Positions 448 to 18,035 of a stretch of 18,217 nt of DNA are shown here, in pieces. How positions within the stretch are numbered: the stretch's first letter is position 1; every line of letters starts with the position of its first letter. Position numbers and translations under genes: made by a program. Origin of the DNA: a virus. The notes under the pieces are model-generated. The model was not told the origin of the DNA, did not search any database, and worked only from the letters and a program-made list of their open reading frames with translations. The stretch is from the UHGV virus genome UHGV-0816550. The stretch is one strand, 5' to 3'.

Positions 448-3400
448 ATGATCGTTTATAATAGCCAAGCACCTGATGCAGTGAATGATGTTGGGCAGTT
501 TGGTGCTAAGGAAGGCTCTATCGGAGCTTACAAGCAAGCAGCAGAATATGCAGCTGACTCCAAATATTGGGCACTGCTAGCGGAGTCTAAGTTTGGTACA
601 ATTGATGACTTGATCACTGAAGTAGAACGTCTGTATCAACAAGGTGTTTTAATGAAGCAAGATATCGAAGATCTTAAACAGGACTTTAAAGATCAAGATG
701 CTCGTTTGATGACACTTATTGCTCAGACTAACGCAGCAGTGTCGGATGCTAATAATGCCGTTGCTTTAATCAATCAGAAACTTATTGAGGTTCAGAAACA
801 GCTTGATGTTCTGTTGGGAATGTCTGTTGACGTAACTACACTTCCTCCGGGAACTCCGGCTACTGGCTCTTTTAATCCGAACACTGGTGTAATCTCTTTA
901 GGTATTCCAGAAGGTGATCCCGGAAAGGATGGTTCTGTTAAAGATTTGGATACAGCACCTACTGGTGTTCCAGAGCTAGGTGATTTAGGTTTCTATGTTG
1001 ACAAAGATGACAATACTGTCCACAAGACTACTCTAGAGAATATTGCTAACTTAATTCCATCTGTTCGTTCTGTGTCTGTTAACGGTGGAACACCTGCTGA
1101 TGGAGAAGTTAATCTGGTCCTAGACAAAACTACTGTAGGTCTTAATAACGTAGTTAACGTAGCCTCTTATAGTATCTCTCAAGTTGACGGTAAAGTGGAT
1201 GGGTATGTTAAAACCTACAGAACCAAAGCTGCTGCGGATGCTGATGTAGTTAACCGAAAGGTTGGCGAAAACATCCTAGTTTGGGAGGATTATAAATACG
1301 TCTTCTACACTGTAGCTGCCGATAAAACACTAACTCTTTCTAAAACAGAAAATAGGATTGTTACGGTAAACTCTCGAGTTCCGGATTCTACTGGTAATAT
1401 TGATATTACGATACCTACCGGTAACCCGTCTTTGTATTTGGGTGAGATGTTAATGTTCCCTTATGACCCAGCCAAACAGGTGTCATATCCGGGTGTTCTT
1501 CCAGCTGATGGTCGTCTGGTGTCTAAAGATAACGCTGCTGATTTAGGCCCATCTCTTGTCAGTGGTCAACTTCCTGTTGTTTCTGAAACTGCGTGGCAAG
1601 CTGGAGCTAAACAGTATTTCTCTTGGGGCAAGTTAGCTGATGGGGTTACTGATGCGGATTCAACAAACTTTATCAATATTCGACTTCCCGATTGGACAGG
1701 TGGTGAGGCAATTAGATCTCCAAGTAAAACAAGTGACACTCAGTATGATGGAAGACCTCTTTCTCAGGTTCCTTATGTTGTTGCTGTTAACGGTAAGATC
1801 CCTAATGAAGCAACAGGTAATGTTACAGTCACAGCATCAGATGTAGGTGCCCTTCCTACTACTGGTGGTAAGATGACAGGCCATCTAAATCTCAGCTCTG
1901 GGATTGTGTTAACAGGTACCGCGAGTTCTGGAACATCCATTAATATCGCAACTGTTGCAACTGATGGTTCCGTTCTTCTCGGTAGTGATACAGTTAAAGC
2001 TAAAGTCCTATCTTCTGATGTCCCTGTTTATGCAAGCGCTTCGGGAGAGAAGAAGTTTTACACTGAGGCTAACAAACCAACTCCTGCTGAAATAGGGGCT
2101 GCTGCTATCACCTCTGCTGGGGTTAACGGGGATATCACTAAGCTTGAAGGTTTGGTTGGCCCTACTCGACTGGGTGGAGATGCTGTAGGTGATCTAGATG
2201 CTGTTACCTTACGTCAGTTAAGAAACCAAGGGGGTGGCGGTGGTGGGGCTAGCTTGAACGGTGTCTCTAATTTCAATATTGGTGATTTCCGTTTAGTAGA
2301 CAGTCGTGCTCTTATTCACTCTAATGACGTAACTTCTGACGGTCAATTATTATCTCGTACGGCATACCCAGATCTGTGGGCTTATGCTCAAGCGTTGTCT
2401 CCTATCACAGATGCTGCTTGGCTGGCTGACCCCCAACAAAGAGGTAAATACTCTTTAGGTGATGGTTCTACTACATTCCGTGTCCCTGACCGAAATGGTG
2501 TCCAAAGCGGCTCTATCACAGGGTTGTTTGGTAGGGGTGACTCTGGTAATTCTTCTAACAGTGGTTCAGTTTCTGATGCTTCTCTGCCAAACATCACAGC
2601 TAGCTTCTCTTCAGACTTAAACGGAAAAGCTTGGTTTCCTTTCACTACAGCTGACGGGTCTATGCTTGTCTCAACATCCGGTAGTGGAACTTTTATGCCA
2701 ACTGCTGGATATGAAACTGGGACCCAAGGAAATATACTTAGGTTCGATGCATCTAGACAATCCTCAGTTTATGGTCGATATAGTAACACCCAGAACGTAA
2801 TACCTAAAAGTTTTACTGGCGTTTGGGTAATCAGGGCTACTGGTGGATTCACTGCTGCTAATACAGAGTGGTCTGTTATTAACTCCGATGCAACCAAACC
2901 TTCTACTGGGTTTACAGTGTCTGGTGGTTTAGTCCGCTCTGAGTATAAAATAGGGACCGACCTAACTTACTCAGCAACCTTGTCTGCTTATGGGCAAATT
3001 GATGGAGCCTCCGGAACATCTGGAGCTAAAATCTTAAACGGGTCTCAGGAGTGGAAATTCAACAATGCTGGAACATTAGTTCTTCCTAATGCGGTATCTC
3101 AGCTTGGTACAGAAAGACCTGATGGAGCTATCAATGTTGATGCATACCTAAGACCTAAAGATTTGGTAGCCAACTCACTGAACTCTGTCGGTGTTGCGGC
3201 TTACGAGCGAAACGGTATGAGGATGATTAACTTCAATCAAACCACTCCTGGATATGTTTCTTACTTCTCTGGGGATTGGTATGATGGCAGTTACACTCTT
3301 GGTGGCGTTCGTGGTACTGGTACAGACCTGATTCATGCTCAGATTGCGGTAAACAACGGTCAAGGTGTAGCAGCTGATTTTAAGTTCATGCCGGACGGAA

Positions 3401-3762
3401 CTGCTCAAGCAGGGAACTGGTCAAGCACTTCAGACGAAAGACTTAAAACTAACATCAAGCGTATTGAGAATCCTATTGAAAAACTTAAGGCTATCAAAGG
3501 TGTTACTTGGGAACGTCTTGATAAACTTCCTAAACCTAATGGTATTGGCTTCCTTGCGCAAGATGTGGAGAAGGTTTTCCCTGACGCTGTTAAGGCTCTC
3601 CAGTATTCAGACACTGAATTGAAAGATGGAACTATTGTGAAAGATGTTAAGTCTGTAGACACCTATGGGGTAGCTGCTGCACTGCATCACGAAGTCCTAT
3701 TAGTTTTGTTAGATAGAATAGAAGCTCTTGAGAAAGAAGTAAATGAATTAAGGGCACGGTAA
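448..3762 (+). CDS. Tail fibre / tailspike protein 1 (1104 aa) with tail-collar module and C-terminal intramolecular chaperone domain
   Basis: ATG 448 preceded by AAGGAG (437-442). Predicted coiled-coil N-terminus; poly-Gly hinge (QGGGGGGAS); collar-like motif AYPDLWAYAQAL...GDGSTTFRVPDRNG at about 2362-2500; C-terminal S-DERLKTNIKRIENPIEKLKAIKGVTWERLD...LHHEV typical of peptidase S74 self-cleaving chaperone domains. Confidence 0.9.
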   Translation: MIVYNSQAPDAVNDVGQFGAKEGSIGAYKQAAEYAADSKYWALLAESKFGTIDDLITEVERLYQQGVLMKQDIEDLKQDFKDQDARLMTLIAQTNAAVSDANNAVALINQKLIEVQKQLDVLLGMSVDVTTLPPGTPATGSFNPNTGVISLGIPEGDPGKDGSVKDLDTAPTGVPELGDLGFYVDKDDNTVHKTTLENIANLIPSVRSVSVNGGTPADGEVNLVLDKTTVGLNNVVNVASYSISQVDGKVDGYVKTYRTKAAADADVVNRKVGENILVWEDYKYVFYTVAADKTLTLSKTENRIVTVNSRVPDSTGNIDITIPTGNPSLYLGEMLMFPYDPAKQVSYPGVLPADGRLVSKDNAADLGPSLVSGQLPVVSETAWQAGAKQYFSWGKLADGVTDADSTNFINIRLPDWTGGEAIRSPSKTSDTQYDGRPLSQVPYVVAVNGKIPNEATGNVTVTASDVGALPTTGGKMTGHLNLSSGIVLTGTASSGTSINIATVATDGSVLLGSDTVKAKVLSSDVPVYASASGEKKFYTEANKPTPAEIGAAAITSAGVNGDITKLEGLVGPTRLGGDAVGDLDAVTLRQLRNQGGGGGGASLNGVSNFNIGDFRLVDSRALIHSNDVTSDGQLLSRTAYPDLWAYAQALSPITDAAWLADPQQRGKYSLGDGSTTFRVPDRNGVQSGSITGLFGRGDSGNSSNSGSVSDASLPNITASFSSDLNGKAWFPFTTADGSMLVSTSGSGTFMPTAGYETGTQGNILRFDASRQSSVYGRYSNTQNVIPKSFTGVWVIRATGGFTAANTEWSVINSDATKPSTGFTVSGGLVRSEYKIGTDLTYSATLSAYGQIDGASGTSGAKILNGSQEWKFNNAGTLVLPNAVSQLGTERPDGAINVDAYLRPKDLVANSLNSVGVAAYERNGMRMINFNQTTPGYVSYFSGDWYDGSYTLGGVRGTGTDLIHAQIAVNNGQGVAADFKFMPDGTAQAGNWSSTSDERLKTNIKRIENPIEKLKAIKGVTWERLDKLPKPNGIGFLAQDVEKVFPDAVKALQYSDTELKDGTIVKDVKSVDTYGVAAALHHEVLLVLLDRIEALEKEVNELRAR
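3430..3759 (+). other. Intramolecular chaperone (peptidase S74-like) domain of fibre 1, with predicted autocleavage near the Ser-Asp at 3430-3435
   Basis: Motif SDERLKTNI...GVTWERL...GIGFLAQDVEKVFPDAV...LHHEVLLVLLDRIEALEKEVNELR matches the conserved endosialidase/tailspike C-terminal chaperone signature ending in a coiled coil. Confidence 0.7.
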
Positions 3763-3803: not shown

Positions 3804-5900
3804 ATGTCTAGAGATTTAATGCCCAAATCTGGCATACTTCAACCATATGTTGTTGTTTCCAGAGATGCAGCTGTTGTTGGCGTTTCCACTGTAGATGGTG
3901 TTGCTGGAGCTGTAAATTTAACTGATAAATACTTGCAGAAAACAGAAGCGGCTGATGTATATCAAACTAAAACAGAAGGTGCATCTAAAGATTATGTATT
4001 AGATTCAATTAAACCTATCATGGAAGGTGCTTTGTTCAAAGCAGACCCTTTTGTAGATAATAACATCCCTTTCCGTTCTGCTGGGGCTAATGGTGTAGAG
4101 TCTGTGGATATGATGAAAGTCACCACTGATAACTCAATTAAGATTGGTAGTTATGCTTCCTCAGTTCAAGGTGTAGAAATTCACTCTGCTGGTCGTCTTC
4201 AGGTTGTTGACCAGAATGACTCTGGGGTAGAAACTAAGTACCCTGTTTATTCTAAACGATACCGCCCTGAGATTGAAGATTTACCTTTCGCTGCAATCGG
4301 AACTTATGTTAAAGATTCAAAAGGTCGTACTGTTGGTGTTACCCGTACAGGTATTAACTCTGATATCAAACAGCTTACACAGAAGGTTACTTTCACTCAG
4401 CCAGTAACTGTTGCCGATGCAGTTGGTGACTATGATGCTGTCACACTAAGACAACTCCGTAATAGTAGTGGTGGTTCTGGTGGTCCTACAATGAGCGGTA
4501 TTTCTAACTTTGGTATTGGTGATTTCAGACTAGTAGACAGCCGTGCTTTTATCCAATCAAATGATGTTACCTCAGATGGTCAGCTGTTAAATCGTGCTGA
4601 TTACCCAGAGCTTTGGGCTTACGCACAACTATTGACCCCAATTAGTGATGCAGATTGGCTGGCTGACCCCCAACAAAGAGGTAAATACTCTTTAGGTGAT
4701 GGTTCTACTACTTTCCGCGTTCCTGATAGAAATGGCGTTCAAACCGGTTCTATCTCTGGTCTGTATGCTCGCGGTGACGGTGGTAACAGCTCCAACGACG
4801 GTACTGTTCAGCAGAACGCCGCGCCTGATATTACAGGCTCCGTTGGTGCGAACATATGGAGCGTATATGGAGATCCTACGGGGGCGATGTTTGCGGCTGA
4901 TCCAGCACTTAATATTCCGTTAGGCGCAGGAACCACACCAGCGCTTTCCGTCGGCTTTCGAGCGGGCCTATCAAACGCCGCTTATGGTCGCGACAACACG
5001 ACCGAAGTCCGCACCAACAGCTTCATAGGTGTCTGGGTTATTCGTGCTAATGGTGGCTTTACTGCTGCTAATACTTCTTGGTCTGTTATTAATGGCGACA
5101 GCGTTGCTCCGGGTACTGGAACAAAGATAGTAGGTGGTGAGATTCGTTCTGACTATAATATTGGAGACTCTATGCACATAAGATCCTCTATGCGTGCTGA
5201 TGGTAACTACGGTCAACGTGGAGGTGGTGTATGGAGAATTGAGGACTATCAAGGTAAAAGTGCAGAGATATCTTTCAACCTTGGTGGTGAGTTAGTGGTC
5301 CCAACATACACCAGAGGCGTGGGGTCGGGTTTCATTGCATCTTCTAAATTAGGGTCTGATGGTCAGTGGCCTACAACATCCCCGGCGTTTATTTGTGAGC
5401 TAACAGGCAGAGTGGGTAATCCCGGAACACCGGGTGCTGTTTTCTCCATGTCTATGGCGGAGAACGTGGGTGTTGATAGCTTTGGCATACTTAGATTCTC
5501 AGGAGCAGGGGTGAATGTGGACTGGCTGTTTAACCAGTTTGGTAGTGCCATAGCTCCTGCTAACTGGGTGAGTAATTCGGATATCCGAATTAAAAAGGAT
5601 ATTGCTAAGATAGAAGAACCTCTTGAGAAGATGAAGAAACTACATGGGTACACTTGGCGACGCTTAGACGGGGGCCAGTTTGGTATTGGGTTCATTGCTC
5701 AAGAAGTTCAGGATATCTATCCAGAGTTGGTCTATACAGGCCCAGACAGAACCCTCCCTGATGGAACAGTTGTCAAAGGTGTCCTATCTCCAGATTCTAC
5801 TGGTATTGCGATTGGTCTTCACCACGAAGCTATTCTGGCTTTGATGGAACAAATCGACACCCTTAAAGCAGAGATTGCTGAACTCAAATCTAACAAATGA
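3804..5900 (+). CDS. Tail fibre / tailspike protein 2 (698 aa), paralogue of fibre 1 with collar module and C-terminal intramolecular chaperone domain
   Basis: ATG 3804 with AAGGAG at 3792-3797. Collar-like motif ADYPELWAYAQLL...GDGSTTFRVPDRNG at about 4596-4737, roughly 80% aa-identical to fibre 1 over this module; C-terminal SDIRIKKDIAKIEEPLEKMKKLHGYTWRRLD...LHHEAILALMEQIDTLKAEIAELK. Confidence 0.9.
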   Translation: MSRDLMPKSGILQPYVVVSRDAAVVGVSTVDGVAGAVNLTDKYLQKTEAADVYQTKTEGASKDYVLDSIKPIMEGALFKADPFVDNNIPFRSAGANGVESVDMMKVTTDNSIKIGSYASSVQGVEIHSAGRLQVVDQNDSGVETKYPVYSKRYRPEIEDLPFAAIGTYVKDSKGRTVGVTRTGINSDIKQLTQKVTFTQPVTVADAVGDYDAVTLRQLRNSSGGSGGPTMSGISNFGIGDFRLVDSRAFIQSNDVTSDGQLLNRADYPELWAYAQLLTPISDADWLADPQQRGKYSLGDGSTTFRVPDRNGVQTGSISGLYARGDGGNSSNDGTVQQNAAPDITGSVGANIWSVYGDPTGAMFAADPALNIPLGAGTTPALSVGFRAGLSNAAYGRDNTTEVRTNSFIGVWVIRANGGFTAANTSWSVINGDSVAPGTGTKIVGGEIRSDYNIGDSMHIRSSMRADGNYGQRGGGVWRIEDYQGKSAEISFNLGGELVVPTYTRGVGSGFIASSKLGSDGQWPTTSPAFICELTGRVGNPGTPGAVFSMSMAENVGVDSFGILRFSGAGVNVDWLFNQFGSAIAPANWVSNSDIRIKKDIAKIEEPLEKMKKLHGYTWRRLDGGQFGIGFIAQEVQDIYPELVYTGPDRTLPDGTVVKGVLSPDSTGIAIGLHHEAILALMEQIDTLKAEIAELKSNK
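5577..5897 (+). other. Intramolecular chaperone (peptidase S74-like) domain of fibre 2
   Basis: NSDIRIKKDI...HGYTWRRL...GIGFIAQEVQDIYPELV...GLHHEAIL plus terminal coiled coil; homologous to the fibre 1 C-terminus but divergent (I estimate about 40% identity by eye). Confidence 0.7.
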
Positions 5901-15482: not shown

Positions 15483-16274
15483 ATGCAACAGACAACTTAC
15501 GCTCAGGTCAGAAGTCGTGACCCGAGAAATACTTTCTATGGTGTTAATCCGGGAGCGGCTTCGGCCTCTCCTTATATGGCTAGACCAACTCAGACAGCAG
15601 ATATTTCTATGTATCAACGTCCTGCTATACCTGCTGGGCTTTCCTCTCTTGTAGGTCAAACTTCAGTAGATTATCAGAATATGTTGAATCCTGTTCAGAG
15701 TAATGGTCTTCCTTCTGATATCCCAAATGATGTACAACCTCAAGCACAACAGGCTGTAACTCTTCCTGAGTTTGAGAATCAAGAAACCATGCAAGCTGCT
15801 GGACTTTCTCCTTCTTCTATTCCTCCAGAATCAGAACCTCTTCCGGTAACACCTCCTACTAAACCGTTAGAAGCTGGTCCTATGGAGTTTACTCCTTCTC
15901 AGGTGGAACAGGCACAAGGTGTGATTAATACTCTTGCTCAAGGACAAGACGCTGGTGATGGAATGACTGCTGCTACTCGTGCTAAAGATCAGGAACGTGT
16001 TAACAACGATATCTTGCAAGTTGCTAAAGCTAAAAATCCTTCAGAAGCTTGGAATAAACTACAGAAAGAACCTTTCTATCAGAACTCCAGTTTCTATACA
16101 GGTTTAATGGGTGTAGGTCTTTCTATCATGTCAGGTAAGTCTCCTATTGAAGCTTTCCAGATTGGTCAGGGAATGGCTAATCAAGATGAGACTAAGAAGC
16201 AACTGGAAGCTAACCGTGATGCTCTGATTGAACAAGGCTTCTCCCAAGACTCGATCGCAGCTGCTATTGCTTAA
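15483..16274 (+). CDS. Hypothetical virion/ejection-associated protein (263 aa) with Pro-rich linker and C-terminal hydrophobic segment
   Basis: ATG 15483 with AGGAG at 15473-15477. Pro/Ser-rich linker (SPSSIPPESEPLPVTPPTKPLEAGP) and hydrophobic FYTGLMGVGLSIMSG near the C-terminus; no family motif recognised. Confidence 0.65.
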   Translation: MQQTTYAQVRSRDPRNTFYGVNPGAASASPYMARPTQTADISMYQRPAIPAGLSSLVGQTSVDYQNMLNPVQSNGLPSDIPNDVQPQAQQAVTLPEFENQETMQAAGLSPSSIPPESEPLPVTPPTKPLEAGPMEFTPSQVEQAQGVINTLAQGQDAGDGMTAATRAKDQERVNNDILQVAKAKNPSEAWNKLQKEPFYQNSSFYTGLMGVGLSIMSGKSPIEAFQIGQGMANQDETKKQLEANRDALIEQGFSQDSIAAAIA

Positions 16275-17967
16275 CACGTTGAGAGCGAGCACGCTGAGAA
16301 GAGAAGCGATTCAGAGCATACTTAGCAGCACCGAGAGTGTTCATTACCAGACTAGGTGAAGAAGCCTCACGGAATCCATCATCAGTCAGGGAAGTCCAAC
16401 CACGATCTTGGTTACTCATAAACTTAGCCGTATTGTTCAGAGTGTAAGCATCTTGGATAGGATTAAAACCTTCAGGCATGCCTTTCAGTTTCTTCAACCC
16501 ACCGATAGCTTTCTTCATCTCTGGAGAAACGTTATCAGCCATCTTCTGTAGTTCAGCAGCTTTCTCTACGAAGTTGTTAAAGTCTTCACCATCACGAGCT
16601 TTGAATCGATTTGCTTCGTTATAGAAAGTCTTGTACGCATCAATGAAATCACGGTCAGCTTGTGTGCGATTCTTAATATCAATCGGACTGCCAGTAAAGT
16701 CACCAGAAGCTCGGAGAGAAACTAACTCACGATCAAGATTATCCAGAACATCTGTAAGAGCTTTAGTGTTATCCTTGGTGTAGTCAGCCATTGCATCTTT
16801 CATAGCGACAGCTTGCTTCTGGTTGTGCTCATTATCAGCGAAGGCTTTACCACGAGTCTTAGCCGGAGAAGCTAAAGGGTTAAGGCCCGGAATGTTGGAA
16901 TGTTCTTTCTGAACAGAAGCAGCTTTCTCAGCACGAGCTTGGTCAGTATTAAGAATACGCTGAGCAGCAGGAGAATCTACAGCAACAGCATCTGTGATAC
17001 GGAATCCGTTCTCGTCGAGAAGGTTCAGAGCAGAAGCAGCGTTAGCAGTTTCAGCTTTAGAGTAAGCCTCTTTCAGCTCATCAATATTCTTAGCACCACG
17101 AATCAGTTCATCATCAGCAGCAATATCAGTCTTCGCATATTCTGGAGTGTTCTTGAAGACAGCAGAATCCGGACGGCTAATCAAACCATGAACTCCACCA
17201 ACTGCACCACCAAATGCAGCACCCATAGCCCCTTCTTCAATAACCCCTTCCAATGTCTTAGCTAAATCATTGTCATCACCATACTTGTTCTGAACTTCAG
17301 CAGCACCAACAAGAGCACCACCTTTAGCACCAGCCACTGCGTTACTAGCAACGTTCTGACCAATACGACCAAGTGTGGACTCAGCTGTACCAACAGCACC
17401 CGGAAGGATTCTCTGAGCTGCATAGTTAGCACCACCAACTAAGGCTGCATCTAGAACAGACTTATCTTCTCCCTCTTCAGGGGTTTGGTCTGCATACGCA
17501 CGACCGGTCTCACGACCTGCGATGATAGCAGCGGCAGCTAATGGGTTAGCAACTGTCAGACCAATGTCGGCAACCACCCCAGCATACTGACCAGCAGACT
17601 TACCAATCCCATCCTCAATCTTATCCATACGTTCTTTCAAGAGGTTTTGAGCGTTCTCTTGCATACGCTTCCCGTAACCAGTTTGTGCTCCAGTTAGATC
17701 TTCACCAATCTCAACTAAGCCCCCAATACCTCTAGCAAGATTAGCAGAGATGTTAGCACTGCCGGACTGAAGAGCATTTGACACACCTTGAGCAAACTCA
17801 CCTATAGCACCACGTTCTTCTTGTTGTGGTTGTGCTACTGGCTGTTCCTCAGGAATAGAGCCACCTGCTGCCTTATATTGTTCTCTCATTCGAGCTTGTT
17901 GCTCCGGAGAGGCATTCAGATACGCAGGAGCTTTGGAAGCTTCTTCCCACGGTTTAATGTTAGCCAT
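16264..17967 (-). CDS. Hypothetical Gly/Ala-rich protein (567 aa), function unknown
   Basis: Minus-strand ATG at 17965-17967 preceded by AAGGAG; product begins MANIKPWEEAS. The ORF-track start at 18012 has no ribosome-binding site. Stop TAG at 16264-16266 overlaps the 3' end of the + strand gene ending at 16274. Confidence 0.75.
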   Translation of the reverse strand: MANIKPWEEASKAPAYLNASPEQQARMREQYKAAGGSIPEEQPVAQPQQEERGAIGEFAQGVSNALQSGSANISANLARGIGGLVEIGEDLTGAQTGYGKRMQENAQNLLKERMDKIEDGIGKSAGQYAGVVADIGLTVANPLAAAAIIAGRETGRAYADQTPEEGEDKSVLDAALVGGANYAAQRILPGAVGTAESTLGRIGQNVASNAVAGAKGGALVGAAEVQNKYGDDNDLAKTLEGVIEEGAMGAAFGGAVGGVHGLISRPDSAVFKNTPEYAKTDIAADDELIRGAKNIDELKEAYSKAETANAASALNLLDENGFRITDAVAVDSPAAQRILNTDQARAEKAASVQKEHSNIPGLNPLASPAKTRGKAFADNEHNQKQAVAMKDAMADYTKDNTKALTDVLDNLDRELVSLRASGDFTGSPIDIKNRTQADRDFIDAYKTFYNEANRFKARDGEDFNNFVEKAAELQKMADNVSPEMKKAIGGLKKLKGMPEGFNPIQDAYTLNNTAKFMSNQDRGWTSLTDDGFREASSPSLVMNTLGAAKYALNRFSSQRARSQRVKQ

Positions 17968-18035
17968 AACGTCTCCTTTTATAAATAAAAATGTCCTACC
18001 CCCTATATACATTATAGAAGGCAGGACTTAGGTCT

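What the first reader, a model, noticed from the sequence alone, without database searches (positions are those of the whole stretch)
4745..5040. GC-rich patch inside fibre 2
Counting bases in 60-nt blocks gives about 52-63% GC for 4741-5040, against about 42% for the adjacent 5041-5100 and about 43% for the window. The patch encodes the region just distal to the conserved collar module (GDGGNSSNDGTVQQNAAPDITGSV...AYGRDNTTEVRTNS) and uses GC-rich codons (GCG, CGC, GGC) that are rare elsewhere. This fits a segment acquired by recombination from a higher-GC relative, a likely host-range determinant.
Basis: seen in the sequence. Interest (0 to 1): 0.55.

Follow-up and report, generated by a model that had tools for sequence, protein, structure and literature searches.

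The report
Swapped receptor-binding cassette in tail fibre
The GC-rich patch is real: it is the variable core of a receptor-binding domain in a coliphage tail-fibre gene, brought in by recombination with its own foreign codon usage. This is a clear example of the well-known shuffling of phage host-recognition modules.

Summary
**Observation confirmed.** Window 4745-5040 is 55.7% GC against 43.5% for the window, the strongest GC peak in 18 kb. About one third of the excess comes from amino-acid composition. Two thirds comes from atypical synonymous codons: GC3 is 0.50 against 0.29 expected, z=5.3.

**What it is.** The window is the structural module of a phiEco32-like (Kuravirus) coliphage. The patch is the variable core of the 'Gp12-like' receptor-binding domain of the second lateral tail fibre (3804-5900). 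It lies between two ultra-conserved blocks.

**Recombination is shown directly.**
- A related metagenomic Kuravirus contig matches 4675-5081 at 99.5%, but only about 50-68% immediately outside that tract.
- There the tract sits in the other fibre gene.
- The same allele, always with GC3 of about 0.45-0.56, also occurs in two more Kuraviruses, a T5-like phage and a 59-kb siphovirus. All have low-GC backgrounds.
- Among 118 homologues, 48 patch types and 25 distal-domain types form 76 combinations.

**Limits.**
- No higher-GC donor carrying this allele was found. A parallel case (Dhillonvirus to T5-like LtfB) shows that such transfer happens.
- The host-range role rests on homology to the experimentally mapped DT57C LtfA determinant.

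**Verdict.** A known kind of mosaicism, of modest interest.

The parts
448..3762 (+). Fibre 1 (phiEco32 gp14 / DT57C LtfA-like lateral fibre, 1104 aa). It carries its own copy of the same domain, plus a distal domain and a C-terminal chaperone.
   Evidence: ORF and translation. Pfam gives Peptidase_S74 at E=1.6e-14 and a sub-threshold Collar match. Synteny matches annotated Kuravirus genomes.
2500..2817 (+). The patch-equivalent segment of fibre 1. It has ordinary composition (GC 0.43, GC3 0.31) and serves as an internal control.
   Evidence: Motif-bounded segment survey. Its allele resembles the fibre-2 patch of P0005/L051.
3804..5900 (+). Fibre 2 (phiEco32 gp15 / LtfB-like 'T-shaped' fibre, 698 aa). 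Order of modules: conserved N-terminal attachment module, Gp12-like RBD1, distal RBD2, self-cleaving chaperone.
   Evidence: ORF and translation. Megablast to 74 phiEco32-like phages covers only the N-terminal half. PDB 8hqz_d (DT57C LtfA) matches at E=3e-93. Literature: PMC8217332, PMC11990801.
4416..4736 (+). Upstream conserved block of RBD1, ending ...GDGSTTFRVPDRNG. It is the left arm for homologous exchange and is repeated in fibre 1 at 2179-2478.
   Evidence: Direct repeat D1, 75% identity. A 60-nt stretch (4644-4703) is 93% identical to fibre 1. Protein residues are invariant across 25 phage loci. Synonymous divergence is high (pS 0.5-1.0) with pN/pS of 0.03-0.12.
4737..5027 (+). The GC-rich patch: the variable core of RBD1 ('Q-type' allele), 97 codons with GC 0.553 and GC3 0.495.
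   Evidence: The same allele with the same composition occurs in L027, L047, L049, L050 (fibre 1) and L056.
4839..4955 (+). Hypervariable centre of the patch. It has most of the amino-acid differences among Q-type alleles.
   Evidence: Nucleotide identity is 0.75-0.91 here, against 0.90-0.97 in the two GC-rich arms. pN/pS is 0.6-1.3.
4675..5081 (.). The recombination tract shared with metagenomic Kuravirus contig L027: 407 nt with 2 mismatches. In L027 the tract sits in fibre 1.
   Evidence: Alignment and mismatch map. Fisher p=3e-33. BLASTN shows the rest of L027 is about 78% identical to the window.
5016..5092 (+). Downstream conserved block (NSFIGVWVIRANGGFTAANTSWSVIN). It is the right arm for exchange and is repeated in fibre 1 at 2806-2882.
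   Evidence: Direct repeat D2, 77% identity. DNA homology to other Kuraviruses resumes here. GC returns to 41.7% in 5041-5100.
5093..5576 (+). Distal domain (T5-like RBD2 in the BASEL nomenclature). It is a separately assorting module, mildly GC3-enriched.
   Evidence: It is shared at 80-98% nt with L050 and L051, which have different patches, and is absent from L047, which has the same patch. GC3 is 0.375 observed against 0.329 expected over 5043-5897, which also includes the chaperone.
5577..5900 (+). C-terminal intramolecular chaperone (Peptidase_S74).
   Evidence: Pfam PF13884 at E=2.3e-14, residues 592-644. PDB 6f45 chaperone match. Cleavage was shown for the orthologue EP335 gp13 (PMC8217332).

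Best explanation
**What it is.** The window is the tail and fibre module of a phiEco32-like (Kuravirus, Gordonclarkvirinae) coliphage. Its second lateral fibre gene (3804-5900) is built from four exchangeable modules. The GC-rich patch (about 4737-5027) is the variable core of the 'Gp12-like' receptor-binding domain. It is bracketed by two blocks that are almost invariant at the protein level across podo-, sipho- and myophage fibres, and in both fibre genes of this phage.

**How it got there (shown).** Homologous recombination in those blocks replaces the core as a cassette of about 300-430 nt, independently of the rest of the gene. The allele present here was imported that way.

**Why it is GC-rich (part shown, part inferred).** The allele keeps a codon usage unlike the resident genome: GC3 of about 0.5 against about 0.3, rich in GCG, CGC, AAC, ACC and GGC. 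That is the reason it stands out in GC. Inferred: the allele lineage originated in, or circulates through, phages of roughly 50-55% GC.

**What it does (inferred).** By homology with mapped determinants, the core forms the glycan (O-antigen) recognition surface. Swapping it would therefore retarget the fibre.
For: 1. **Real and mostly synonymous.** Observed GC is 0.553 against 0.474 ± 0.015 expected from the patch's amino acids. GC3 is 0.50 against 0.29 expected.
2. **Homology breakpoints coincide with the GC shift.** DNA homology to 74 Kuravirus records stops at about 4735-4753 and resumes at about 5020-5100.
3. **Direct recombination tract.** 4675-5081 is 99.5% identical to L027, with about 68% identity upstream and about 50% downstream (p=3e-33). 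There the tract lies in the paralogous fibre-1 gene of a genome otherwise about 78% identical.
4. **Independent assortment.**
   - P0003, P0004 and P0005 share the N-terminal and distal parts but have other patches.
   - P0007 shares the N-terminal part and the patch but not the distal domain.
   - P0008 and P0061 share the patch and distal domain but not the N-terminus.
   - Across 118 proteins, 48 patch clusters and 25 distal clusters give 76 combinations.
5. **Young patch in old flanks.** Among carriers of the allele, pS is 0.05-0.27 in the patch but 0.5-1.0 in the protein-conserved upstream flank.
6. **Composition travels with the allele.** Six carriers in three or more phage groups all show GC 0.55-0.59 and GC3 0.45-0.56, against rest-of-gene GC3 of 0.29-0.35.
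7. **Not a family-wide property.** Over 63 distinct patch segments, the mean of (patch GC3 minus gene GC3) is +0.001. Values range from 0.17 to 0.65.
8. **Precedent for the direction of transfer.** The DT57C LtfB patch (GC3 0.62, gene 0.43) is 88-100% nt identical over about 480 nt to Dhillonvirus Envy, a 54% GC phage.
9. **Function.** DT57C LtfA and the phiKT fibre share only this domain. Golomidova et al. report that the mapped specificity determinant is the part 82% identical to phiKT, and that swapping it switches O-antigen host range (PMC4728585). The orthologue EP335 gp13 binds O157 and O26 (PMC8217332). The phylogeny of Gp12-like RBD1 tracks host range (PMC11990801).
Against: - **No donor found.** No carrier of this allele has a genome whose composition matches the patch. 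The 'higher-GC donor' is inferred from codon usage only.
- **Part of the excess needs no transfer.** About one third of the GC excess is amino-acid composition (Gly, Ala, Pro, Arg, Thr).
- **Fold assignment not reproduced.** The Gp12-like assignment could not be confirmed with my tools:
  - Pfam Collar is only sub-threshold.
  - hhalign against T4 gp12 is negative.
  - Fold searches with a monomer AF2 model are negative.
- **Function rests on homologues.** No binding or host-range data exist for this allele. Its identity to the mapped DT57C LtfA patch is only about 42%.
- **Direction unresolved.** The direction and timing of the L027/window exchange cannot be determined.
Confidence: 0.8

Rival explanations
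1. The GC excess is a by-product of amino-acid composition. A Gly/Ala/Pro/Arg/Thr-rich loop region forces GC-rich first and second codon positions, and there is no foreign ancestry.
For: GC at codon positions 1 and 2 of the patch is 0.58, and it is about 0.49-0.60 in all 63 homologous segments whatever the carrier. Expected GC from the amino-acid sequence alone is 0.474, against 0.435 for the window. That accounts for about 4 of the 12 percentage points.
Against: Observed GC exceeds the amino-acid expectation by 5.3 sd (0 of 20,000 resamplings). GC3 is 0.50 against 0.29 expected. Kuravirus relatives with equally Gly/Ala-rich patches have GC of only 0.43-0.47.
Confidence: 0.05
2. The GC enrichment is produced locally. 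One route is GC-biased gene conversion at a recombination hot spot. Another is selection on the DNA or mRNA of this segment. In either case it is not inherited from a higher-GC lineage.
For: The segment is demonstrably a recombination hot spot. At least three unrelated alleles in Kuravirus backgrounds are GC3-rich: the Q-type, the P0003-type and the P0006-type. All known carriers of the Q-type allele are low-GC phages, yet the allele has not drifted towards their composition.
Against: There is no systematic effect. Across 63 segments the mean of patch-minus-gene GC3 is +0.001. Thirty-three of the 42 segments in low-GC3 carrier genes have patch GC3 below 0.45, and four alleles are more than 0.15 poorer in GC3 than their carriers, phiKT among them. 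There is no RNA structure signal (z=-0.01) and no Rfam hit. In the Dhillonvirus/T5-like case the patch composition simply equals the donor genome's.
Confidence: 0.1
3. The patch reflects another overlapping feature: an embedded or antisense gene, a structured RNA, or the variable region of a diversity-generating retroelement.
For: A 93-codon antisense ORF (4971-5252) overlaps the 3' end of the patch. The centre of the patch is hypervariable.
Against: Every alternative frame carries 3-18 stop codons across the region in all five allele copies. The RNA fold z-score is -0.01 and Rfam finds nothing. The only repeats in the window are the fibre-1/fibre-2 conserved flanks, so there is no template copy of the patch. 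None of the window proteins scanned against Pfam (seven ORFs plus the two fibres) hit a reverse transcriptase, and none appears among the Pfam calls on related contigs.
Confidence: 0.02

Closest known systems
T-shaped lateral tail fibres with Gp12-like RBD1 plus T5-like RBD2 plus intramolecular chaperone (Gordonclarkvirinae, Wifcevirus, some Tequintavirus; Humolli et al. 2025, PMC11990801)
   Same: The gene position is the same: second fibre gene, downstream of a long proximal fibre, in a Kuravirus. The module order is the same, and so is the Peptidase_S74 chaperone. That paper already reports both RBDs as highly variable and frequently transferred horizontally across phage morphotypes, and it reports that RBD1 phylogeny correlates with host range.
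   Different: Four points here go beyond that description.
- The exchanged unit is a sub-domain core of about 300-430 nt, bounded by conserved blocks inside RBD1.
- It assorts independently of RBD2 within one gene (76 combinations).
- It moves between the two paralogous fibre genes.
- Individual alleles keep distinct GC3 signatures.

In this phage fibre 1 also carries the same domain and chaperone, as DT57C LtfA does.
DT57C / DT571-2 LtfA-LtfB branched L-shaped fibres (Golomidova et al. 2016, PMC4728585; PDB 8hqz)
   Same: There is direct sequence homology: query residues 203-644 align with LtfA 559-1015 at E=3e-93. Specificity for O22-like or O87 O-antigen was switched experimentally by recombination through conserved flanks. 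The mapped determinant is the region shared with phiKT, which is this domain.
   Different: The carrier is a different phage family (a siphovirus). The patch allele is only about 42% identical. The solved structure covers only the LtfA N-terminus, so no experimental structure of the patch exists.
T4 gp12 short-tail-fibre receptor-binding tip / Pfam Collar domain (PF07484)
   Different: The relation was not reproduced here: Pfam is below threshold, hhalign is negative, and monomer fold searches are negative. Here the domain sits mid-fibre with a second domain beyond it, and it probably targets O-antigen rather than LPS core.
Classical tail-fibre gene mosaicism (P2/Mu/lambda/T-even fibre segment exchange; tailspike module swapping, e.g. 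PMC10408124)
   Same: Host-range segments are exchanged by recombination at conserved junctions across unrelated phages, and compositional discontinuity serves as a footprint.
   Different: This is a different protein family. The junctions here lie inside a single folded domain rather than between domains.

Membership tests
Kuravirus / Gordonclarkvirinae lateral fibre 2 (phiEco32 gp15, EP335 gp13 orthologue) | Conserved N-terminal attachment module, and synteny: adaptor, fibre 1, fibre 2, holin, lysozyme, Gp10_C short fibre, Big_2 protein. | tested here: met
   The N-terminal 225 aa are 81-96% identical to 114 of 118 homologues. DNA is 77-88% identical over 3804-4750 to 74 Kuravirus-type records. 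Gene order matches annotated genomes and related contigs.
Kuravirus / Gordonclarkvirinae lateral fibre 2 (phiEco32 gp15, EP335 gp13 orthologue) | C-terminal self-cleaving intramolecular chaperone (Peptidase_S74). | tested here: met
   PF13884 at E=2.3e-14, 53.8 bits against a cutoff of 22. PDB chaperone hits 6f45, 7dc3 and 3gud. Cleavage itself was not tested here.
Gp12-like receptor-binding domain (SSF88874 / Pfam Collar PF07484) | Significant sequence match to the Collar / gp12 tip profile. | tested here: inconclusive
   Collar scores 17.7-20.9 bits against a gathering cutoff of 24, matching only model positions 38-54. Sub-threshold hits occur in 16 of 22 homologous domains. hhalign of profile A4 against T4 gp12 gives probability 0.3%. 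Literature HHpred and InterPro do assign the domain to this family (PMC8217332, PMC11990801).
Gp12-like receptor-binding domain (SSF88874 / Pfam Collar PF07484) | Fold similarity to the T4 gp12 tip or the gp37 knob. | tested here: inconclusive
Horizontally exchanged mosaic cassette (recombinant segment) | Abrupt identity breakpoints against a relative. | tested here: met
   There are 2 mismatches in 407 nt inside 4675-5081, against 66 in 199 nt outside (p=3e-33).
Horizontally exchanged mosaic cassette (recombinant segment) | Phylogenetic incongruence or independent assortment relative to neighbouring segments. | tested here: met
   Module identity table. 48 patch clusters and 25 distal clusters give 76 combinations. 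The same allele occurs in fibre 1, fibre 2, a T5-like fibre and a siphovirus fibre.
Horizontally exchanged mosaic cassette (recombinant segment) | An identified donor lineage whose genome composition matches the segment. | tested here: not met
   No Q-type allele was found in a high-GC background in phages, IMG/VR, E. coli genomes, GTDB genomes or metagenomes. Only an analogous case with a different allele exists: Dhillonvirus Envy and DT57C LtfB.
Diversity-generating retroelement variable region | A template repeat copy and a reverse transcriptase nearby. | tested here: not met
   There is no second copy of the patch in the window. None of the window proteins scanned against Pfam (seven ORFs plus the two fibres) or the neighbouring genes on related contigs hit a reverse transcriptase.
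O-antigen specificity determinant of the fibre | Swapping the segment changes host range or binding. | not testable with these tools
   Support comes only from homology to the mapped DT57C LtfA determinant (PMC4728585) and from correlation in BASEL (PMC11990801).

The most novel reading that the evidence does not exclude
The two invariant blocks inside the Gp12-like domain may act as universal 'adaptor' sequences. They would let a sub-domain receptor-binding core of about 300-430 nt circulate as a free cassette in three ways:
- among at least four coliphage lineages of 39-55% GC;
- between the two paralogous fibres of one virion;
- independently of the second receptor-binding domain.

If so, the GC3 of each core allele would be a usable tracer of the direction of gene flow. 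On this reading the Q-type allele marks an as yet unsampled phage lineage of about 50-55% GC that feeds receptor specificities into low-GC virulent coliphages.
Probability: 0.4. Interest if true: 0.45.

Novelty: new member of a known kind. Interest (0 to 1): 0.3.

Why it matters
This pins a host-recognition swap to exact coordinates in a group of phages used for therapy and biocontrol. The exchangeable unit is smaller than a domain and is flanked by sequences conserved across very different phages. That makes it a natural, ready-made design for retargeting fibres by cassette replacement. The persistence of a foreign codon signature also offers a simple way to trace which phage lineages supply receptor specificities. 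Conceptually, though, it adds detail to an established picture of mosaic tail fibres and horizontally transferred receptor-binding domains. It does not change that picture.

Tried and rejected
**Donor searches**
- BLASTN of 4700-5110 against phage genomes matched only the conserved flanks.
- BLASTN against 5,426 complete E. coli genomes gave one 73-nt flank hit.
- TBLASTN of the patch against phage genomes gave at most 53% identity.
- IMG/VR peptide and degenerate-DNA scans found no Q-type allele. L057 shares only the YGRDNTTEVRTN motif.
- GTDB genomes gave one Kluyvera MAG at 42% identity.
- The metagenome scan gave L027, which is a low-GC Kuravirus and not a donor.
- A protein search with the 175-aa fragment returned a single hit. 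This is a tool limitation; the full-length query worked.
- An exact-protein contig look-up for fibre 2 found nothing. P0002 is an unnamed 100% identical NCBI entry.

**Alternative features**
- RNA structure: z=-0.01.
- Rfam: no hit.
- DGR template or other repeats: none.
- Overlapping ORFs: stop codons in all other frames in all alleles.

**Fold and family confirmation**
- A profile search against PDB found only DT57C LtfA and chaperone domains.
- hhalign against T4 gp12 was negative.
- PDB 8hqz models only the LtfA N-terminus, so it gives no structure for the patch.

**Hypotheses rejected**
- An amino-acid-only explanation, rejected by codon resampling.
- A family-wide GC-rich patch, rejected by the survey of 63 segments.
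Full report
**1.

- Sliding-window composition puts the highest GC of the whole 18,217-nt window at 4651-5100, at about 52.5% in 300-nt windows.
Blocks from 4741 to 5040 give 55.0, 53.3, 51.7, 63.3 and 53.3%. Block 5041-5100 gives 41.7%, and the window mean is 43.5%.
- 4745-5040 is 55.7% GC. The best 296-nt window is 4734-5029, at 56.1% and z=4.1. A maximal-scoring-segment scan returns 4767-5037.
- By codon position within ORF 3804-5900, GC3 rises from about 0.13-0.33 upstream to 0.37-0.53 in the patch. GC2 also rises.
- I resampled synonymous codons for the patch's own amino-acid sequence using the codon usage of the window's other genes. This gives an expected GC of 0.474 ± 0.015 against 0.553 observed (z=5.3, 0 of 20,000). 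Expected GC3 is 0.29 against 0.50 observed.
- This is the top-ranked 100-codon window of all ORFs. GCG, CGC, ACC, AAC, GGC and GTC are all over-used.
- So about one third of the excess comes from amino-acid composition and about two thirds from atypical synonymous codons.

**2. What the region is**

- The window is the structural module of a phiEco32-like podovirus (Kuravirus, Gordonclarkvirinae).
  - ORF 3804-5900 matches 74 such phage records at 77-88% nt, but only over its first 930-1300 nt or so.
  - Neighbouring genes are the SU10-type adaptor, a 1104-aa fibre 1, lysozyme, a Gp10_C short fibre, a Big_2 protein, a tail tip protein and an SLT transglycosylase.
- Both fibres end in a Peptidase_S74 intramolecular chaperone, and both give a sub-threshold Collar-domain match at the TTFRVPDRNG motif.
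- Fibre 2 residues 203-644 align to DT57C LtfA residues 559-1015 (PDB 8hqz_d, E=3e-93). Only the LtfA N-terminus is modelled in that structure (PMC10713586).
- Published work calls this architecture a 'T-shaped' fibre: a Gp12-like RBD1, a T5-like RBD2 and a chaperone (PMC11990801). It also relates EP335 gp13 residues 236-422 to the T4 gp12 tip (PMC8217332).
- An alignment of 25 IMG/VR homologues shows two nearly invariant blocks...GDGSTTFRVPDRNGVQ... upstream (with RGDGG at the patch's 5' edge) and ...GVWVIRAxGGFxAANTSWSVIN downstream. They enclose a hypervariable stretch of about 70-110 residues. The GC-rich patch is that stretch.
- Within the window, the only repeats touching fibre 2 are these two blocks, which are shared with fibre 1: 2179-2478 with 4416-4715, and 2806-2882 with 5016-5092.

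**3. Recombination is directly visible**

- Full-length homologues show module shuffling.

| Relative | N-terminal part | Patch | Distal domain |
|---|---|---|---|
| P0003, P0004, P0005 | shared | 22-38% aa identity | shared (80-98% nt for P0003 and P0005) |
| P0007 | shared | shared (77-92% nt) | unrelated |
| P0008 (T5-like context, next to LtfC) | unrelated | shared | shared |
| P0061 (59-kb siphovirus) | unrelated | shared | shared |

- Clustering 118 proteins at 60% identity gives 4 N-terminal clusters (114 proteins in one), 48 patch clusters, 25 distal clusters and 76 patch-distal combinations.
- The sharpest evidence is metagenome contig L027.
  - It is a Kuravirus fragment about 78% identical to the window overall. 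It contains the 3' part of fibre 1 followed by fibre 2.
  - It differs from window 4675-5081 at only 2 of 407 positions, against 66 of 199 immediately outside (Fisher p=3e-33).
  - The shared tract lies in its fibre-1 gene.
- L050 also carries this allele in fibre 1.
- Among carriers of the allele, synonymous divergence is low in the patch (pS 0.05-0.27). It is high in the protein-conserved upstream flank (pS 0.5-1.0). This is the pattern expected for a recently shared segment set in old, diverged backgrounds.
- The centre of the patch (4839-4955) has pN/pS of 0.6-1.3, against 0.03-0.12 in the upstream flank.

**4. Why it is GC-rich**

- The composition belongs to the allele, not to the position.
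- Six carriers have patch GC of 0.55-0.59 and GC3 of 0.45-0.56, against rest-of-gene GC3 of 0.29-0.35. They are window fibre 2, L027 fibre 1, L050 fibre 1, L047 fibre 2, the T5-like L049 and the siphovirus L056.
- Other alleles in the same Kuravirus background have ordinary values. Fibre 1 of this window has GC3 0.31, the phiEco32-type 0.28 and the P0005-type 0.26.
- Across 63 distinct segments:
  - patch GC3 ranges from 0.17 to 0.65;
  - it correlates only weakly with the carrier gene (r=0.44);
  - the mean difference is +0.001;
  - nine alleles are more than 0.15 richer than their carrier and four are more than 0.15 poorer.
- This rules out a position-specific bias such as biased gene conversion or selection on the DNA. 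It fits a shared allele pool that circulates among phages of 39-55% GC.
- One case shows the direction of transfer. The DT57C/DT571-2 LtfB patch (GC3 0.62 in a gene of GC3 0.43) is 88-100% nt identical over about 480 nt to Dhillonvirus Envy, whose whole gene has GC3 0.63.
- The reverse also occurs. phiKT (52% GC) carries the low-GC3 DT57C LtfA allele.
- For the Q-type allele itself no compositionally matching donor was found.

**5. Function**

- Golomidova et al. switched the O-antigen host range of DT57C and DT571-2 by recombining the divergent C-terminal part of ltfA through conserved flanks. They found that only part of it was needed, and that this part is 82% identical to the phiKT fibre (PMC4728585).
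- My BLASTP shows that DT57C LtfA and the phiKT fibre are highly similar only across this domain, patch included. They diverge in the distal domain. The mapped determinant therefore corresponds to the patch-containing domain.
- DT57C and DT571-2 LtfA begin to diverge just before the patch.
- EP335 gp13, the fibre-2 orthologue, binds O157 and O26 cells.
- In BASEL the Gp12-like RBD1 phylogeny tracks host range, while the RBD2 phylogeny does not.
- The AF2 monomer model predicts the patch as structured and beta-rich, with pLDDT mostly 70-94.
- I could not confirm the gp12 fold relation independently.

**6. Rivals**

- Amino-acid composition alone fails the resampling test.
- An overlapping gene, an RNA structure or a DGR are excluded.
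- Local GC-biased processes are disfavoured by the zero mean offset across alleles. They are not formally excluded for this allele lineage, because every known carrier is low-GC.

**7. Verdict**

- The recombination interpretation is supported, with exact breakpoints.
- The higher-GC donor remains an inference.
- The host-range role rests on homology.
- The phenomenon itself is already described: mosaic, horizontally transferred receptor-binding domains in T-shaped fibres. This is therefore a well-resolved new member of a known kind, with useful detail on the size, boundaries and compositional tracing of the exchange unit.

Noticed in passing
window 5573-5592: A perfect 20-nt palindrome (TAATTCGGATATCCGAATTA, with an EcoRV site at its centre) overlies the codons for the predicted chaperone autocleavage motif (SNSDIRIK), at the junction between the distal domain and the chaperone. 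None is expected by chance (0 of 200 shuffles). Among 69 fetched loci it recurs only in the fibre 2 of L027, so it is not broadly conserved.
   Followed up: partly
window 17300-17595 (inside minus-strand ORF 16264-18012): This is the second-highest GC peak of the window, at 53.4% and z=3.2. It comes with strongly negative GC skew, in a 582-aa minus-strand ORF with no Pfam hit.
   Followed up: no
window 5244-5570: The distal domain of fibre 2 is also mildly enriched in GC3 (0.44-0.46 against 0.32 expected). It is shared at 65-92% nt with a T5-like contig (L049), and at 68% protein identity with a 59-kb siphovirus fibre (P0061/L056). It may be a second foreign module.
   Followed up: partly
L027 2851-3150; L050 6934-7275; L058 4746-5060 and 7001-7312: Other, unrelated patch alleles in Kuravirus backgrounds are also GC-rich (GC 0.53-0.54; GC3 0.50-0.54 where measured). 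Phage pEC-N1203-2Af.1 has such alleles in both fibres. GC-rich cores are therefore recurrent but allele-specific.
   Followed up: partly
L053 5756-6073 (DT57C ltfB) against L005 6112-6429 (Dhillonvirus Envy): A cassette of about 480 nt is 88-100% identical between a T5-like phage (about 39-40% GC) and a 54% GC Dhillonvirus. Its composition matches the Dhillonvirus. This is a clear case of transfer from a high-GC to a low-GC phage in the same domain.
   Followed up: yes
L055 2492-2821 (phiKT fibre): An Autographiviridae phage of 52% GC carries the DT57C LtfA-type patch with GC3 of 0.31, against 0.46 for the rest of its gene. This is the opposite compositional mismatch.
   Followed up: partly
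window 448-3762 against 3804-5900: Both lateral fibres of this phage carry the same domain, a distal domain and an S74 chaperone. The virion may therefore display up to four variable receptor-binding modules. Some relatives, such as L051, instead have an 852-aa fibre 1 with a Phage_tail_C_2 end.
   Followed up: no
L027 (CYGL01002189.1), whole contig: This metagenome contig has several frameshifts in both fibre genes, for example a 1-nt insertion near position 470. They are probably assembly or sequencing errors. The 99.5% identical tract lies within one uninterrupted reading frame.
   Followed up: partly
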